Source: Mytilus edulis (taxonomy: Eukaryota). Taken from it: a stretch of 64,000 nt of DNA. The DNA lies in contig NC_092345.1 in NCBI RefSeq assembly GCF_963676685.1, positions 22,196,001 through 22,260,000 on the forward strand, in the 5' to 3' direction. Position 1 is the first letter of the stretch. Each line of letters starts with the position of its first letter. This document shows, one piece after another, positions 27,001 to 36,000 of the stretch. Made by a program: the position numbers.

Positions 27001-30000
27001 AAAACGGACTGACTGTCACACCAATAGGGGGGCATTTAGAAGGGCACCTTTTACCAGAAATATTTGGATGATAGAATAGGAATCCACTGAAGCATAAACG
27101 GAGCGGCCCCTCTTAAGCAGCCAATGCCATTTATGGGCCCCGGACTTATGAAAGTTTCTGGATCCGCCACTGATATGACCAACACAATAATTTGAATAGA
27201 TTTTCTGTGTTTTGACGGCACTTTTAAGAACCGTTTTAATCTATTTCGTGGCGGCCAGTTTTTATTGGTGGAGGAATTAAGGCGGGTGCCCGTAGAAAAC
27301 CTTCGACCTTCGATATAATATGGTATTACAAACAAATGGAAGTTTTTAACGACCTTGACTGGCTATACAGCCCTTGCACGGTCGGTTAAATGGTATTAAA
27401 TGGCTTAACTTTATATATCTATAATCTAACTATACTAGATGACTTAAGTTTTCTGAAAATATAAACGGGCGTGTCAATGCAAGATAAATAAGTCTATTTT
27501 GTAAATTTTAAAGATTAGATAATAAATGGACATATGATTTCTGCATAAGGAAGAAATACTTTTTGACCCTTGCAATATTTACTGAAAAAGATAATTTCTT
27601 ATTTAGTTAATAACAATAATTCTAATTTACAGGTAAGTCAATAATAAAGGACGCCTCATCTTTAAATATTAAAGTTAAAATATTCCAATCGTCACATACT
27701 GTGGTAAATAAAAGTACATAAAGTCATTTATTGTTAAAGTTTGATTGTTATTTCTAAATTGAAATCTGGTGACGTTCATTTTTATCTAGATTTAAGCATT
27801 CCGAGTTTGAAATCATGTTACCGAGGTGTGCATGTGTGTGGGGGGGGGGGGGGGGGGTAGTTTCCGACGGCCTCGATCAGTATTTTCAGTCGTGGTGAGA
27901 CAGCCATTGGAAGAGTGCAATATTTTCTATTTCACGTAAACCAAACCACAATATCTATAAATAAGAAATAAAAATATGACATGTTGTTATCCCCACTTTT
28001 TGGAGGTGATATATTCTCCAATTCTCTGTCTTTTCTCTAGGTCAGTCAGTTAATTTAATACATCCGAACTAATAAATGTCTCTTTCCGAATTTGCAAATT
28101 GACGTTTAGCAACAAACAATCAATATCAATGCGTTAAATCTGATTTCATTATTTATCTCGAACCGAAAGTAGAATGACTGTGAAAAACATACCAATTAAA
28201 ATTTATCATATCATGACATAATAGATATCATTTCATTTAAAGTACCATGTCAGAACAGAAGTGTGATCCTTGCTCAAGAGATGAAGTAGAAACCTGTGCC
28301 ACGACTTGGTGCACTGACTGCGAAGAAGCGCTATGCGCCGATTGTACGAGGGCCCACCGTCGCAACAAACTGAGCTTATCCCATGTTTTATTAGATACTT
28401 CAGAAATCAGTTCATTACCAGAATCTACCATCACAACGCAAACGTTCTGTGATATTCACTGCGACATTCTACTTGAGTTTTATTGTCAGTCCCACAGTAA
28501 GACCTGTTGTCGTTCTTGTATGGTGGAAGCACATCGAAACTGTGACAATGTAATACCGTTGAGCGAAGCTTCAAAAAATATAAAATCTTCCCCTATAATT
28601 GAAGAATTGTCTGCAGAAATAGAAAATATTATTAGTACAGTCGATAAATTGCTACAAAATGGAAACGGAAACTTGAAGGAGATTGAAAACCAAGAAAGGG
28701 AAATCTTAGATAGTTTATCGAAAGCGAAAAAACAAGCAACCGACACTTTCGATAAAGCAGAAAAATCTTTGAGGAACGGTCTTGCGAAAGAGAAAAAAGT
28801 TATTGAAGAAAAGGTAAAAGCTCAAGATGCAACTATGTTACAAATCAAAAAGTCAACCGAGGTTAGTGACCAGGAACTCAAATTTATTGAACGTTATGCA
28901 TCCGATGTCCAAGGATATCTTCAACTACGAAAAGTGAAGCAGGAACTCCGCACGAAAGCAGATGAATTAGACACTTCAATTTCTGAGATAACTAAAATGT
29001 CAATGAAGTATGACAATGCAACAGATTGGTGTGTCAAGTCACTTGGCAGCGTCAGCGTAGAAGTGATACCATGTCCTATTGTATATAATCCTGTATATCA
29101 GACGTCAAAACCAGAAGTTCCAATGTCTGCTCCTCCTCCTCCAGCGCGAGCGGCAAAAGAACAAACAATTTTGGATCATTCTGGTAAATGGTAAACAAAA
29201 TTAAGAATAACAGATAAAAGACAATGTCAATTAAGAAACTGCGTATAGATTGATTAAGCTAGCCTAACTTGTTAAGTGATCGATTATGACTTCATTTTAT
29301 TTTGATACTCAGAAACCTTTTATGTGTTTTGCTTCTAAGTTTCTGTCCCCAAGTGTCTTTTAATAAGGTTCTAGTAACGCTTGTCATGTACTGTCACATT
29401 TCTAATTCGTTTAATTTTAAAATATGTATAATATTTTATGCATTAAATCATGGTGTCAAAATAACTAAAATGTCGAAAGAACATATTCAATGATAAAGAC
29501 ACCAGAAGAAAATAGAGGCATCAATATTTATAAGTATTCGCTTTTTAATGTATGAAATAATCTCAATGGAATTATACATTTTACTTAAATTTCCAGATGA
29601 AAATACTGTTAACGTACTAGAAATACCAGTCGCATCAATAAGAAAAGGACTAAGAATTAAAAGTGGACAATTTGCTGATGTGTGGAAAGGTAAGAAGTTC
29701 GAAGTTTAGATAAATTGTATGTAGTAATTCAGAACAATCAATGAAAATTTCAATCAAATACAAAAAGTAATTCTCGATTTATCACCGAGTTTGCATGAAC
29801 AAATCTTTATTCTTATTTGTTTTCGAAAATTCCTTCTGTCGATTGGTAAAAAAACTTTCAACTTAAGTATCAACCAATTTTAAATAGTCGTTGTTCATTT
29901 ATCACGAGGATTACATTAATTTTATTGAACCTAACTGTTTTTATTTTCAAAAGTCCAGGGGCCTGGTTTTCGAAAGTATCTTATGACTAAGACATGTCTT

Positions 30001-33000: not shown

Positions 33001-36000
33001 CATAGTGTTTATTAAACAAATATATTTCTAAATAATTAGTGATCATTCATTTGGTTTATCTTTATATTAAAAAAAACACATTTCTAATAGCATGTTATAC
33101 TCTATTGTAATCAGGGATTTTACAAAATCCCTAGCTCTATTTTCAGTGATTTTGTAAAATCCCTAACAATTTCAGGTATTTTACAAAACCACTGAAACTG
33201 TTAGTGATTTTACACAATCACTGATTAGTCCAGTGATTTTACAAAATCCCTGATTTTACAAATTCCCTGTAACATATATACTAGTACTTAACCATTTATA
33301 TTATACGCTATATCTTTATTTTTGTTTATAATAGCTTCATACTATTTGGTTACAGGTGTGTAATGGCATGGAATATCTTAATTCTAAAAGAATTGTCCAT
33401 ACAGATCTTTCCGCAAAAAACGTGCTGATAGCTGATGGAATAATTGCTAAAATCACTGGCTTTGGAATGGCAAAAATTCTAAGCAATGGAGATACACTCA
33501 AAATGGGTAACTATTTTCTTATCAAAAACTTTCACTTGAATAAAAAAAAAAAAGCAAAACGTATTACCTCTAACCCCAGGGGTGACATGGTGAATAGATT
33601 TGTGATCACTTAGGTCTTCTTCCAACCCTTGAAAAAGTAGGGTATACGCAGTATGACTGTGCGGGAAGTACAAGTACGCAACCACAAAATTTGGGCATTA
33701 AATCCGATGCCTTCTTGTGAAGAGGTGCCACGCTTTTTATATGTGAACGATGTTAAATACAACGATATAAATGCATTTCTTCCATCTTTTTTTTATTTAA
33801 GATACAGCCTTTCCTGTACCTATTAAATGGACAGCACCGGAAGTTCTTCTTGACAAAACAATATCCATAATGACTGACGTCTGGTCATTTGGAATATTAA
33901 TGGTTGAAATAATGATGCTTGGAAAGGAACCATATCCTGGTAGGTGAACAAATATCTGTTGATAAAGTCATTTAGATCAAATTATTTGTTGTTGGGTGCT
34001 TAATAGAAAAACAAAATTGATCAAAATGTAACTTATAAACCTTATGATACAGCTCTTTTTTTAGCTTTAAGAATTATTTTACTACCACAGGAACAGATTA
34101 CCATAGCATAACCTTTTGAAATTTTGGTCCTTAATCCTATTCAGCTCTGTACTTTACTTGGCTTTTCAACTTTTTGATTCGAGCGTTACTGATGAGTCTT
34201 ATGTAGACAAAAATTGCGTTTTGCGTACAAAATTATAAGCCTGGTATCTATGATGTCCACGAAATTCCGACTTATTGCAAAGCCATTTTTATTTTTCTCG
34301 ACAGGAATAAAGAAACAAGACCTTATTCCTATGATGAAAACTGGTTATCGACATCCTCAACCTGAAGATTGTTCCGATTTAATTTATGATATTTTACTTC
34401 GATGTTGGAATGAGAATCCCGACGAAAGGCCAACGTTCGATTTTCTTTACAATTTCTTCGATACAGTAGAAGTAATTAATGATGAAGATATAGGAAGCGA
34501 CGATGTAATGTCAGTTGCCAGTAACGAAGAGGAAAATGCATCAAGCAGACTGAGCGATGTACACGAAGACATACTACCTACACAACGAAGCAAGAGTAAG
34601 AAAAAACATCAACAGAAAGACAAAGAAAAATGCACTATATCATAAAGATATATCTGGACAGACGTTGTACGTTGAAAGTCAATGAAATAAAGACAAAAAA
34701 GAGATGATTAAAATTGAGGGCGTTCAACTTTTTTTTATTTTTGCAATATCATAAATGTAAAAAAAATATGTTTAACTTGATATTCTCGAAGGCTCTAAGA
34801 TAACTAAAACAATAAAAAAAAAAATTGAGTCGAATAGTTTAAATCCATAAAAGTAGCTACAAGATTTCATTAAATGATATTTCTAGTTTTCGTATATTTC
34901 AAAATAAAGTTAGTTGTGTAGTATGGAGTTTTTTTGTGCCTGTTACTGAACATGACTTATTTGTTTATAATTGTTTAATTTTTTTTTTTAATCTCTTGAA
35001 TTCAAAATCGATTATCTAGTGACGCCAGATATTGGTCAAACCAAATTCAAGTTCGAATTGGTACATCTGTGTTAATATCGATGAAAATATCAAGATATGA
35101 AGCAGACTTTCTAATTTCGAAATAATCATTAATTGCAAATTCACTGGGTAATATTAGATGGAAACGCACATCGAAATGATGTTTATAGAGTACCAGAACA
35201 TCACCAATATAGCTGAAAGTGAAATTAAAAACCTTGGTTAGATTATTTTTCTTTTCGTCTTTGAGAAGGTTCTGTATGAATTCAAAATTAGCCATTAAAT
35301 GATGTCATTTTATATGAAGTACACTTCATTGTGCACCAAATCATCACAAACAATAAATTATATAAAACCAAGCAAACAAGCTGTACGTAAACTATAAATA
35401 TAAAATCGGCTTCGGTTGAGTAGTGTACACGAGGGGCACATCAACCAAAGATGAATCAAAAGATAGTTAGAATGTTAGTTAGTATGGTCCAGTAAGATTT
35501 CACAGACTACAGGTAAATAGTATGTAAGGTCATGGTGTTGGGTCATTTAAACTGTTAGAGAAATATTAATATATGCCTTGGCATAGACATGAGTTTTTTC
35601 TCATTATAATTTCACTGTAGCTTGATAGGCGTTTACACTGTATTATTTGAGTCACATTTTTTTAGTTTGGTTAAATAATAAAGAAGAGAAGTTTCAATTC
35701 AAAATTGCACCTTTCTTTGCACTTTATGTAAATAATCGAAAATATGTATCTGAATTAAATTGTGTCAGCACCTTTATTAATAACAATTACAAGATTAAAA
35801 AGAAAATTGACAATACTTGGATATTTTACAGTCCAGTCTCACATAAACATGGATAGGTTTGGAAACTATACAAGTGCGTGTAACACAAATTGTAAAATGA
35901 TTCATGAATTGGATCTCCAAATCCAATATGTATAAACATAGCTGAAAATTTTAAAAACTTTTGCAAAACATTAGAAAGACGGATTTTTTGGATAAAGTTG

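What the first reader, a model, noticed from the sequence alone, without database searches (positions are those of the whole stretch)
29597..33939. The kinase domain is a predicted pseudokinase with an otherwise intact fold
Seen: DFG->GFG (KITGFGMAK, ~33449-33463), alphaC Glu->Gln (LKSQIDILATCNH vs Src LQEAQVMKKLRH), Gly loop GxGxFG->KSGQFA, HRD->HTD, and no activation-loop Tyr; the beta3 Lys, catalytic Asp/Asn, PIKWTAPE and DVWSFG are kept with no stops or frameshifts. Established: loss of the Mg-binding DFG Asp marks pseudokinases, and MLKL also has GF at this position. Inference: a conformational switch or decoy controlling B-box/coiled-coil oligomerisation, possibly in immunity.
Basis: partly seen in the sequence, partly recalled or inferred. 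Interest (0 to 1): 0.75.

Follow-up and report, generated by a model that had tools for sequence, protein, structure and literature searches.

The report
B-box coiled-coil protein with degraded tyrosine kinase
An invertebrate, probably mollusc, gene joins a TRIM-like zinc-finger and coiled-coil module to a Src/Abl-type tyrosine-kinase domain that has lost key ATP- and magnesium-handling residues, so it probably works as a binding scaffold and not as an enzyme.

Summary
The stretch 29597-33939 holds exons 2-5 of a six-exon + strand gene (28247-34645). It has 647 codons, GT-AG introns and consistent phases.

Exon 1 encodes two B-boxes and a coiled coil, with no RING. Exons 2-6 encode a tyrosine-kinase-type domain (Pfam PF07714, E 7.6e-13 to 1.8e-15 for exons 3-6).

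- **Changed:** DFG to GFG and HRD to HTD, alphaC Glu to Gln, G-loop KSGQFA, no activation-loop Tyr.
- **Kept:** beta3 Lys, catalytic Asp and Asn, [16 protein letters not shown] and RPTF.

By the standard sequence definition it is a predicted pseudokinase. By the Scheeff 2009 criteria it has only "moderate deficits", so cryptic activity is not excluded. CASK and VRK3 carry exactly GFG; MLKL has GFE.

A homodimer model of the B-box2/coiled-coil passed its controls and is antiparallel, like TRIM proteins. The C-terminus ends in a polybasic stretch plus CTIS, which looks like a CaaX box.

Whether GFG and Gln are fixed in orthologues could not be checked, because the protein databases were closed. 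The switch, decoy and immunity ideas remain untested.

The parts
28247..29183 (+). Exon 1. ATG at 28247, with an in-frame stop just upstream at 28238-28240. It encodes B-box1-like (residues 6-46, nt 28262-28384), B-box2 (residues 68-99, nt 28448-28543), the coiled coil (residues ~105-252, nt 28559-29002) and a Pro-rich linker. The exon ends in phase 1 before GTAAAT.
   Evidence: Pfam zf-B_box 5.4e-08 with 2 stretches; ANCHR-like_BBOX 7.6e-05, below its cut-off. All eight B-box2 Zn ligands can be read in the translation. The nearest Atlas clusters are mollusc B-box proteins, score 0.97. The donor was read.
29597..29689 (+). Exon 2: start of the kinase domain, with the G-loop KSGQFA at 29659-29676.
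   Evidence: Acceptor ...TTTCCAG| and donor |GTAAGA, phase 1 on both sides; codons. The exon has no scored match of its own. It was assigned by position and pattern.
31353..31636 (+). Exon 3: beta3 Lys (31400-31402), alphaC with Gln (31445-31447), hinge EFM, alphaD.
   Evidence: Pfam PF07714 7.6e-13. Best PDB match is ABL1, 8.8e-09, with an ungapped alignment through alphaC.
33356..33506 (+). Exon 4: catalytic loop HTDLSAKN (33398-33421) and GFG (33458-33466).
   Evidence: Pfam PF07714 8.5e-15. Alignments to EGFR, TYK2 and FGFR2 place T opposite the HRD Arg and G opposite the DFG Asp.
33802..33939 (+). Exon 5: end of the activation loop, PIKWTAPE (33819-33842) and DVWSFG (33876-33893). A second in-frame acceptor would start the exon at 33808.
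   Evidence: Pfam PF07714 1.8e-15. Best single-domain PDB match is CSK, 2.7e-11. Junctions were read.
34305..34645 (+). Exon 6: GYRHPQP, CW (34403-34408) and RPTF (34427-34438). The kinase domain ends at about 34465. Then come an acidic Ser-rich tail, a polybasic stretch (34592-34630), CTIS (34631-34642) and the stop (34643-34645).
   Evidence: Pfam PF07714 1.4e-10, profile positions 206-256 of 258. Best PDB matches are HCK 1.1e-11, then Lyn, Fyn and Src. The tail was read.
34686..34691 (+). AATAAA, 41 nt after the stop: a likely polyadenylation signal.
   Evidence: Pattern search. Its function is inferred.

Best explanation
The region is the middle of one intact six-exon gene (28247-34645, + strand, 647 codons).

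**Protein layout**
- N-terminus: B-box1, B-box2 and a coiled coil, without a RING.
- C-terminus: a Src/Abl/Csk-type tyrosine-kinase domain.
- End: an acidic tail followed by a polybasic, CaaX-like sequence.

**State of the kinase domain**
- It has lost the Mg-binding Asp (GFG), the alphaC Glu (Gln), the HRD Arg (HTD), the first G-loop Gly and every activation-loop Tyr.
- Its C-lobe and substrate-side signature motifs are complete.

**Most likely mechanism**
- Shown: the gene structure, the domain identities and the residue changes.
- Supported by a model only: the coiled coil forms an antiparallel TRIM-like homodimer that carries two kinase-like domains.
- Inferred: these domains no longer transfer phosphate at a useful rate. 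They act as protein-binding or allosteric modules, a pseudokinase scaffold, possibly held at a membrane by farnesylation of CTIS next to the polybasic stretch.
- Not addressed by any evidence here: whether the domain still binds nucleotide, what it binds, and any role in immunity.
For: **Gene model.** Introns are canonical GT-AG, phases are consistent, and the exons sum to 1941 nt, which is 647 codons.

**Domains.** zf-B_box matches exon 1, and PF07714 matches each of exons 3-6.

**Residue changes fixed by scored alignments.** Gln sits opposite the ABL1 alphaC Glu. HTD and GFG sit opposite the HRD and DFG of EGFR, TYK2 and FGFR2.

**No alternative exon.** No exon encodes a canonical G-loop, DFG or HRD on either strand in 27000-36000. 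No paralogous kinase exon lies in the window (tblastn).

**Pattern of loss.** From a motif list that I recalled and chose after seeing the sequence:
- 6 of 14 ATP/Mg/catalytic motif positions are changed.
- 0 of 24 C-lobe signature positions are changed.
- Fisher p = 0.0011. This is descriptive only.

Loss of the HRD Arg and of the activation-loop Tyr fit together; the RD-kinase logic is recalled.

**Dimer.** Residues 60-262 of exon 1, in two copies, scored ipSAE 0.65 against a best control of 0.01 (3 controls).
- The runs agree in at least 85% of contacts, and partner pLDDT is at least 81.
- Calibration on microbes: the mark was reached by 21 of 30 proteins solved as pairs of one chain and 0 of 23 solved as single chains.
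- Calibration on eukaryotes: 17 of 29 pairs (animals 7 of 16), but only 1 of 7 with no older solved relative.
- Of the 25 lowest-error contact pairs, 17 have residue numbers summing to 328-336. That indicates an antiparallel register about residue ~166.
- The other 8 pairs place residues 227-237 on residues 121-128 of the partner, a fold-back helix as in the TRIM helical domain (passages of PMC6599887).

**CaaX.** Ser at the X position is the farnesyltransferase type, and K-Ras4B uses farnesyl plus a polybasic domain (passages of PMC13524398).
Against: - No orthologue or allele was examined, so the changes may be private to this copy.
- Each of Gln, Thr and Gly is one nucleotide from the canonical Glu, Arg and Asp codon.
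- By Scheeff et al. only two of the five scored motifs are off: the DFG Asp and the first G-loop position. Val at the beta3 Ala site and Ala at the third G-loop site occur in active kinases. The beta3 Lys, catalytic Asp and Asn are intact. Such 'moderate deficit' domains may keep cryptic activity, and CASK (GFG) was reported active.
- The G-loop alignment is not backed by a scored match.
- The kinase fold itself was not modelled, because joining the exons was left out.
- The dimer pass may reflect the model's memory of solved TRIM coiled coils (caveat printed).
- The single-sequence AlphaFold2 model of exon 1 was poor, pLDDT 47.1.
- In CTIS the a1 residue, Thr, is not aliphatic.
- There is no expression evidence.
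Confidence: 0.6

Rival explanations
1. It is an atypical but active kinase. Phosphotransfer continues without the DFG Asp, for example in a metal-independent way as was claimed for CASK, and dimerisation through the coiled coil switches it on. Oncogenic TRIM-kinase fusions work that way.
For: - The beta3 Lys, catalytic Asp and Asn, and the whole substrate-side C-lobe are intact.
- The Scheeff criteria put it among 'moderate deficit' domains.
- CASK has GFG and is listed there as active.
- A TRIM33-NTRK1 fusion paper appeared in a search listing only (PMC6594006). The activation-by-dimerisation logic is recalled.
Against: - CASK keeps an intact G-loop (GKGPFS). Here the first Gly is Lys and the alphaC Glu is also lost.
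- A 2026 review argues that the CASK activity was probably a contaminant (passage).
- VRK3, also GFG, is inactive.
- No compensating acidic residue was identified.
Confidence: 0.15
2. It is a young, lineage-specific duplicate in neutral decay, or a private allele. The catalytic changes are the first hits on a gene that no longer matters, and the open frame survives only because little time has passed.
For: - Gln, Thr and Gly are each one nucleotide from Glu, Arg and Asp.
- No orthologue was seen.
- The N-terminal module resembles large mollusc B-box clusters of 77-173 members, a setting where turnover of copies is plausible (inferred).
Against: - 647 codons over six exons have no stop or frameshift, and all ten splice sites are canonical.
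- Changes fall on ATP/Mg-site motifs while 24 of 24 recalled C-lobe signature positions are kept (post hoc).
- All B-box2 Zn ligands are kept.
- Neutral decay would not spare these positions so cleanly.
Confidence: 0.2
3. The changes are sequencing or assembly errors in an ordinary active tyrosine kinase gene.
For: Three of the changes are single-base differences from the canonical codons.
Against: At least six separate motif positions in three exons differ. One of them (Gly to Lys, AAA) needs two base changes. The window has no N and no frame breaks.
Confidence: 0.02

Closest known systems
Cytoplasmic tyrosine kinases of the Src/Abl/Csk type
   Same: - The best per-exon PDB matches are ABL1 (exon 3), CSK (exon 5), and HCK, Lyn, Fyn and Src (exon 6).
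- [14 protein letters not shown], GYRxPxP and CW...ERPTF are all present.
   Different: - There is no SH3-SH2 unit. Two B-boxes and a coiled coil stand in its place.
- GFG, HTD, alphaC Gln and G-loop KSGQFA replace the canonical motifs.
- There is no activation-loop Tyr and no Tyr in the C-terminal tail.
- The C-terminus is CaaX-like, and there is no sign of an N-terminal lipid signal (the Src myristoylation comparison is recalled).
GFG-bearing kinase-fold proteins CASK and VRK3
   Same: They carry exactly GFG at the DFG position (Table 1 of PMC2639636).
   Different: - They belong to other kinase groups (CaMK-like and CK1/VRK).
- CASK keeps an intact G-loop and HRD.
- VRK3 has a fully degraded G-loop and HGN.
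- This domain lies in between.
MLKL
   Same: It is a pseudokinase with Gly-Phe at the DFG position (GFE). It is fused to an N-terminal helical module that oligomerises, and its pseudokinase domain acts as a switch.
   Different: - The MLKL N-terminus is a four-helix bundle executioner plus brace, not B-box/coiled-coil.
- MLKL has HGK in place of HRD.
- MLKL is TKL-like, not TK-type (recalled).
- Nothing here shows a switch.
Tyrosine-kinase-group pseudokinases (CCK4/PTK7 ALG, SuRTK106 GLG, RYK DNA, JAK JH2 DPG)
   Same: They are TK-type domains that lack the DFG Asp, have partly altered G-loops, and keep the HxD Asp (Table 1 of PMC2639636).
   Different: Those are receptor or JAK architectures. 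None in that table has a B-box/coiled-coil N-terminus.
TRIM (RBCC) proteins and oncogenic TRIM-kinase fusions
   Same: - B-box2 caps a long helical domain that is predicted to form an antiparallel dimer (TRIM fold passages).
- In TRIM fusions a TRIM N-terminus sits in front of a tyrosine kinase domain (PMC6594006, search listing only).
   Different: - No RING is present, so it is not a TRIM in the strict sense and is not predicted to be an E3 ligase.
- It is a germline gene, not a somatic fusion.
- The kinase part is degraded.
Mollusc RING-less B-box proteins (ESM Atlas clusters)
   Same: Exon 1 scores 0.96-0.97 against three clusters of 77, 173 and 95 members, whose commonest recorded phylum is Mollusca.
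   Different: Those clusters are 277-322 aa and list no kinase family among their Pfam domains. The Atlas gives no alignment, so this is a lead and not a test.

Membership tests
Protein kinase superfamily, tyrosine-kinase type (Pfam PF07714) | Profile match above the curated cut-off | tested here: met
   Exons 3, 4, 5 and 6 score 48.8, 55.2, 57.4 and 41.4 bits against a cut-off of 23.1. In each of the three exons where PF00069 matched at all (3, 4, 5), PF07714 scored higher. Exon 2 alone gave no match.
Protein kinase superfamily, tyrosine-kinase type (Pfam PF07714) | TK-type catalytic loop HRDLAARN/HRDLRAAN (motif recalled) | tested here: inconclusive
   The sequence is HTDLSAKN. Asp and Asn are kept, Arg four residues after the Asp is Lys, and there is no Ser/Thr-kinase-type Lys two residues after the Asp.
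Protein kinase superfamily, tyrosine-kinase type (Pfam PF07714) | P-[IV]-[KR]-W-[TM]-A-P-E and DVWS[FY]G (motifs recalled) | tested here: met
   PIKWTAPE and DVWSFG are aligned to CSK and EGFR.
Pseudokinase (sequence definition) | Absence of at least one of the beta3 Lys, HRD Asp or DFG Asp | tested here: met
   The DFG Asp is Gly (GGC 33458-33460), aligned. The definition is as worded in the abstract of PMC13519141.
Pseudokinase (functional) | No phosphotransfer activity; nucleotide-binding class | not testable with these tools
   This needs recombinant protein, a kinase assay and a thermal-shift assay.
Pseudokinase (evolutionary) | Degraded motifs conserved in orthologues under purifying selection | not testable with these tools
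No paralogue lies in the window.
TRIM / RBCC | N-terminal RING finger | tested here: not met
   There is no RING family match in exon 1. A RING-like Cys/His pattern is absent from all + strand frames of the window. An in-frame stop lies 6 nt upstream of the ATG.
TRIM / RBCC | B-box followed by a coiled coil | tested here: met
   zf-B_box 5.4e-08 with 2 stretches. Long helices at 116-255 appear in the low-confidence AF2 model. The dimer interface has 3-4 residue spacing over residues 105-252.
TRIM / RBCC | Antiparallel homodimer of the helical domain | tested here: met
   This is a model only. ipSAE is 0.65 against a best control of 0.01, and 17 of the 25 best contact pairs are in antiparallel register. 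The pass may come from likeness to solved TRIM structures.
MLKL family | N-terminal four-helix-bundle executioner domain plus brace | tested here: not met
   The N-terminus is B-box/B-box/coiled-coil.
CaaX-prenylated proteins | Cys at position -4, aliphatic a1 and a2, X that sets the enzyme | tested here: inconclusive
   The end is C-T-I-S followed by the stop. Cys is at -4, a2 is Ile, and X is Ser, which is the FTase type by the rule quoted. But a1 is Thr, which is not aliphatic. A polybasic stretch (7 Lys in 13 residues) lies directly upstream.

The most novel reading that the evidence does not exclude
This is a germline counterpart of the oncogenic TRIM-kinase fusions, turned into a pseudokinase. 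It would be a lipid-anchored, antiparallel B-box/coiled-coil dimer that displays two dead Src-type kinase domains. It would serve as a bait or allosteric partner for active tyrosine kinases, or for pathogen factors that target them, making it a mollusc-lineage signalling or immune scaffold of a kind not yet described.
Probability: 0.12. Interest if true: 0.7.

Novelty: new variant of a known kind. Interest (0 to 1): 0.4.

Why it matters
Pseudokinases and TRIM-like scaffolds are each well known. A natural gene that puts a degraded Src/Abl-type domain behind a dimerising B-box/coiled-coil, with a possible farnesyl anchor, would be a new combination.

It would give a simple system for asking how forced two-fold presentation of a dead kinase domain is used in signalling. 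If the changes are fixed in related species, it would add a tyrosine-kinase-derived pseudokinase family from lophotrochozoans, a group poorly covered in kinome surveys.

If the changes are private to this copy, the finding is only an early stage of gene decay.

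Tried and rejected
**Searches for relatives and alternative exons**
- Paralogues in the window: tblastn of each exon peptide separately found only self-hits, plus three chance matches at E 0.23-0.84.
- Alternative exons with a canonical G-loop, DFG or HRD: none on either strand in 27000-36000.
- RING exon: no RING-like pattern on the + strand.
- G-loop exon alone against PDB at E<=10: 0 hits. Pfam also found nothing.
- ESM Atlas with exon 3: only short kinase-fragment clusters, not informative.

**Structure**
- The single-sequence AlphaFold2 model of exon 1 had pLDDT 47.1 and pTM 0.20, and the B-boxes were mis-modelled as helices. 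It was not sent to fold search.
- Fetching a PDB chain by its u-number for a pairwise G-loop alignment is not possible.

**Literature on the architecture**
- Searches returned 0 papers.
- One search returned 13 papers, of which 12 were listed. Judged by title and abstract start, none was about such a gene.
- One search returned 3 papers, none about a natural B-box-kinase gene.
- The main text of the holozoan tyrosine-kinome paper PMC8662651 has 0 occurrences of B-box, TRIM, mollusc or coiled.
- Kwon 2019 (PMC6997932) and Murphy 2014 (PMC5679212) are not held.
- Supplements are closed. Table S5 of Scheeff 2009, which grades every G-loop, was not seen.

**Other**
- Rfam: no family reached its gathering score in the window.
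- The joined six-exon protein was never built, searched or folded, so the kinase fold and full-length family matches stay unchecked.
- The window was not taken for human: GC is about 31% and the nearest relatives of exon 1 are mollusc.
- The genome-contig scan was not used, because that collection holds only bacteria and archaea.

Full report
**Scope and limits.** The window is AT-rich, about 31% GC, with no N. I did not take it for human. The joined protein was never built, searched or folded, so the kinase fold as a whole and any full-length family match remain unchecked. Orthologues could therefore not be examined.

**Gene model.** Stop-to-stop frames and the junction sequences give one + strand gene of six exons:

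| Exon | Coordinates | Note |
|---|---|---|
| E1 | 28247-29183 | ATG at 28247 |
| E2 | 29597-29689 | |
| E3 | 31353-31636 | |
| E4 | 33356-33506 | |
| E5 | 33802-33939 | second in-frame acceptor gives 33808 |
| E6 | 34305-34645 | includes the stop |

- All introns are GT-AG.
- The phases are 1, 1, 0, 1, 1 and fit on both sides of each intron.
- The exons sum to 1941 nt, which is 647 codons. A random sequence of this composition would stay open that long with probability about 9e-23.
- An in-frame stop lies just upstream of the ATG, and AATAAA lies 41 nt after the stop.
- The finding's coordinates, 29597-33939, are exactly E2 to E5. The kinase domain continues into E6, to about 34465.

**Domains.**
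- E1 matches zf-B_box (5.4e-08, two stretches), and its first 46 residues weakly match an ANCHR-like B-box.
- All eight Zn ligands of B-box2 can be read in the translation.
- No RING is present.
- E3, E4, E5 and E6 each match PF07714 on their own (7.6e-13, 8.5e-15, 1.8e-15, 1.4e-10). Profile positions 16-100, 106-160, 165-207 and 206-256 of 258 are covered in order.
- The best solved relatives per exon are ABL1 for E3 (8.8e-09); an EGFR tandem construct, TYK2, FGFR2 and JAK3 for E4; CSK for E5 (2.7e-11); and HCK, Lyn, Fyn and Src for E6 (1.1e-11 and up).
- The domain therefore derives from a cytoplasmic Src/Abl/Csk-type tyrosine kinase.
- E1's nearest ESM Atlas clusters are RING-less B-box proteins recorded mostly from Mollusca (0.96-0.97). 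This is a lead to the host lineage, not proof.

**The observation.** The codon tables and scored alignments confirm each point.

Changed:
- GFG (33458-33466) lies opposite DFG, and HTD (33398-33406) lies opposite HRD, in three printed alignments.
- Gln (CAG, 31445-31447) lies opposite the ABL1 alphaC Glu in an ungapped stretch with high posterior marks.
- The activation segment from GFG to APE has no Tyr with either E5 acceptor.
- The G-loop reads KSGQFA (29659-29676). This exon has no scored match of its own. Its assignment rests on three things: it lies directly before the residues that match profile position 16 onward, it is in phase, and it has the pattern x-x-G-x-F-x-D-V-W-K-G.

Kept:
- VVVK lies opposite ABL1 VAVK.
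- The catalytic Asp and Asn are kept, as are [23 protein letters not shown] and ERPTF.

No alternative exon with canonical motifs exists nearby.

**How strong is the pseudokinase call?**
- The field's definition is loss of one or more of three catalytic residues (abstract of PMC13519141). The DFG Asp is lost, so the label applies.
- Scheeff et al. 2009 (PMC2639636; section 9 and Table 1 read) add two predictors. One is a generalised G-loop, (G/S/A)xGxx(G/S/A). About 4% of active human kinase domains violate it, against about 84% of predicted pseudokinase domains. The other is the beta3 Ala, where V, I, L and M are acceptable.
- Here the first G-loop position (Lys) violates the motif, the third (Ala) does not, and Val at the beta3 Ala site is acceptable.
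- In their scheme this would be a 'moderate deficit' domain, the class for which they leave cryptic activity open. The alphaC Glu, which is not among their five motifs, is also lost here.
- Exact GFG occurs in CASK, listed as active, and in VRK3, which is inactive and cannot bind ATP. The 2026 review argues that the CASK activity probably came from a contaminant.
CASK and VRK3 are nevertheless the closer precedents.
- Each of Gln, Thr and Gly is one base from the canonical codon. A recent origin cannot be excluded.
- The changes cluster on the ATP/Mg side while the C-lobe signatures are untouched: 6 of 14 against 0 of 24 positions, Fisher p = 0.0011. The positions were recalled and chosen after the fact, so this is descriptive only.
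- That pattern, together with intact splice sites and zinc ligands, fits retained non-catalytic function better than neutral decay.

**The N-terminal module.**
- A two-copy model of E1 residues 60-262 passed: ipSAE 0.65, 0.65 and 0.64 against a best control of 0.01 (3 controls). The runs agree in at least 85% of contacts, and partner pLDDT is at least 81.
- Calibration: the mark was reached by 21 of 30 proteins solved as pairs of one chain and 0 of 23 solved as single chains among microbes. On eukaryotes it was reached by 17 of 29 pairs (animals 7 of 16), but by only 1 of 7 with no older solved relative.
- The pass may therefore reflect likeness to solved TRIM coiled coils. It supports binding but does not show it.
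- Of the 25 best contact pairs, 17 have residue numbers summing to 328-336, an antiparallel register about residue 166.
- The other 8 put residues 227-237 on residues 121-128 of the partner, a helix folding back along the rod.
- This is the canonical TRIM helical-domain plan: an antiparallel H1, with later helices packing back and leading to the C-terminal domains (passages of PMC6599887).
- It would place two kinase-like domains on one rod.
- The single-sequence AlphaFold2 model of E1 was too poor to use (pLDDT 47.1).

**The C-terminus.** After the kinase domain comes an acidic, Ser-rich stretch. It is followed by KSKKKHQQKDKEK and then CTIS and the stop.
- Cys at -4, Ile at a2 and Ser at X fit the farnesyltransferase rule. 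A polybasic stretch next to the CaaX box is the K-Ras4B arrangement (passages of PMC13524398).
- Thr at a1 is not aliphatic.
- Membrane anchoring is therefore a reasonable, untested inference.

**Explanations weighed.**
- **Best reading, about 0.6.** A catalytically impaired kinase-like domain serves as a binding or allosteric module. It is displayed in two copies on a TRIM-like antiparallel dimer, perhaps at a membrane.
- **Rivals.** Neutral decay of a young duplicate or private allele (0.2). An atypical active kinase switched on by dimerisation (0.15). Sequence error (0.02).
- **Untested.** The Mab-21-type gene 26 kb downstream is not evidence for them.

**Novelty.**
- Three literature searches for a natural B-box plus tyrosine-kinase architecture returned 0 papers.
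- Two more returned 13 papers (12 listed) and 3 papers. Judged by title and abstract start, none concerned such a gene.
- The main text of a holozoan tyrosine-kinome survey mentions no B-box, TRIM or mollusc.
- This does not show the architecture is unknown. Sequence databases were not searchable, the key pseudokinase survey is not held, and supplements are closed.
- I rate it a new variant of a known kind, with moderate interest.

Noticed in passing
window 34592-34645: The gene ends in a polybasic stretch (7 Lys in 13 residues) followed by CTIS and the stop. This is a CaaX-like box with Ser at X, the farnesyltransferase type, although a1 is Thr. AATAAA lies at 34686.
   Followed up: partly
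window 29087-29149: The linker between the coiled coil and the kinase domain carries NPVY (29087-29098) and PPPPAR (29132-29149). These short motifs resemble NPxY and PxxPxR docking sites (names recalled). They could arise by chance.
   Followed up: no
window 31730-33280 (inside intron 3): A ~1.55 kb element with 50-nt terminal inverted repeats (96% complementary; 31730-31779 and 33231-33280) and 29-nt subterminal direct repeats. It looks like a non-autonomous DNA transposon.
   Followed up: no
window 33800-33808: Two AG acceptors lie 6 nt apart at the start of exon 5, and both are in frame. Alternative use would add or drop two residues (Asp-Thr) in the activation loop.
   Followed up: no
window 61159-63150 (+): A 663-aa open frame matches the Mab-21 nucleotidyltransferase domain (1.2e-08) and Mab-21_C (1.3e-11). 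It is a cGAS/Mab-21-like gene with a long C-terminal extension.
   Followed up: partly
window 10290-10736 (-); 41158-41592 and 42487-43614 (+): A rhodopsin-type GPCR exon (7tm_1, 3.9e-33), and two exons of a major-facilitator transporter (MFS_1, 9.5e-10; Sugar_tr, 3e-04).
   Followed up: no
window 7014-7319 and 59637-60353: Tandem repeats: 51 nt x 6.0 copies (94% matches), open in both strands as repeated peptides, and 178 nt x 4.0 copies (89% matches).
   Followed up: no
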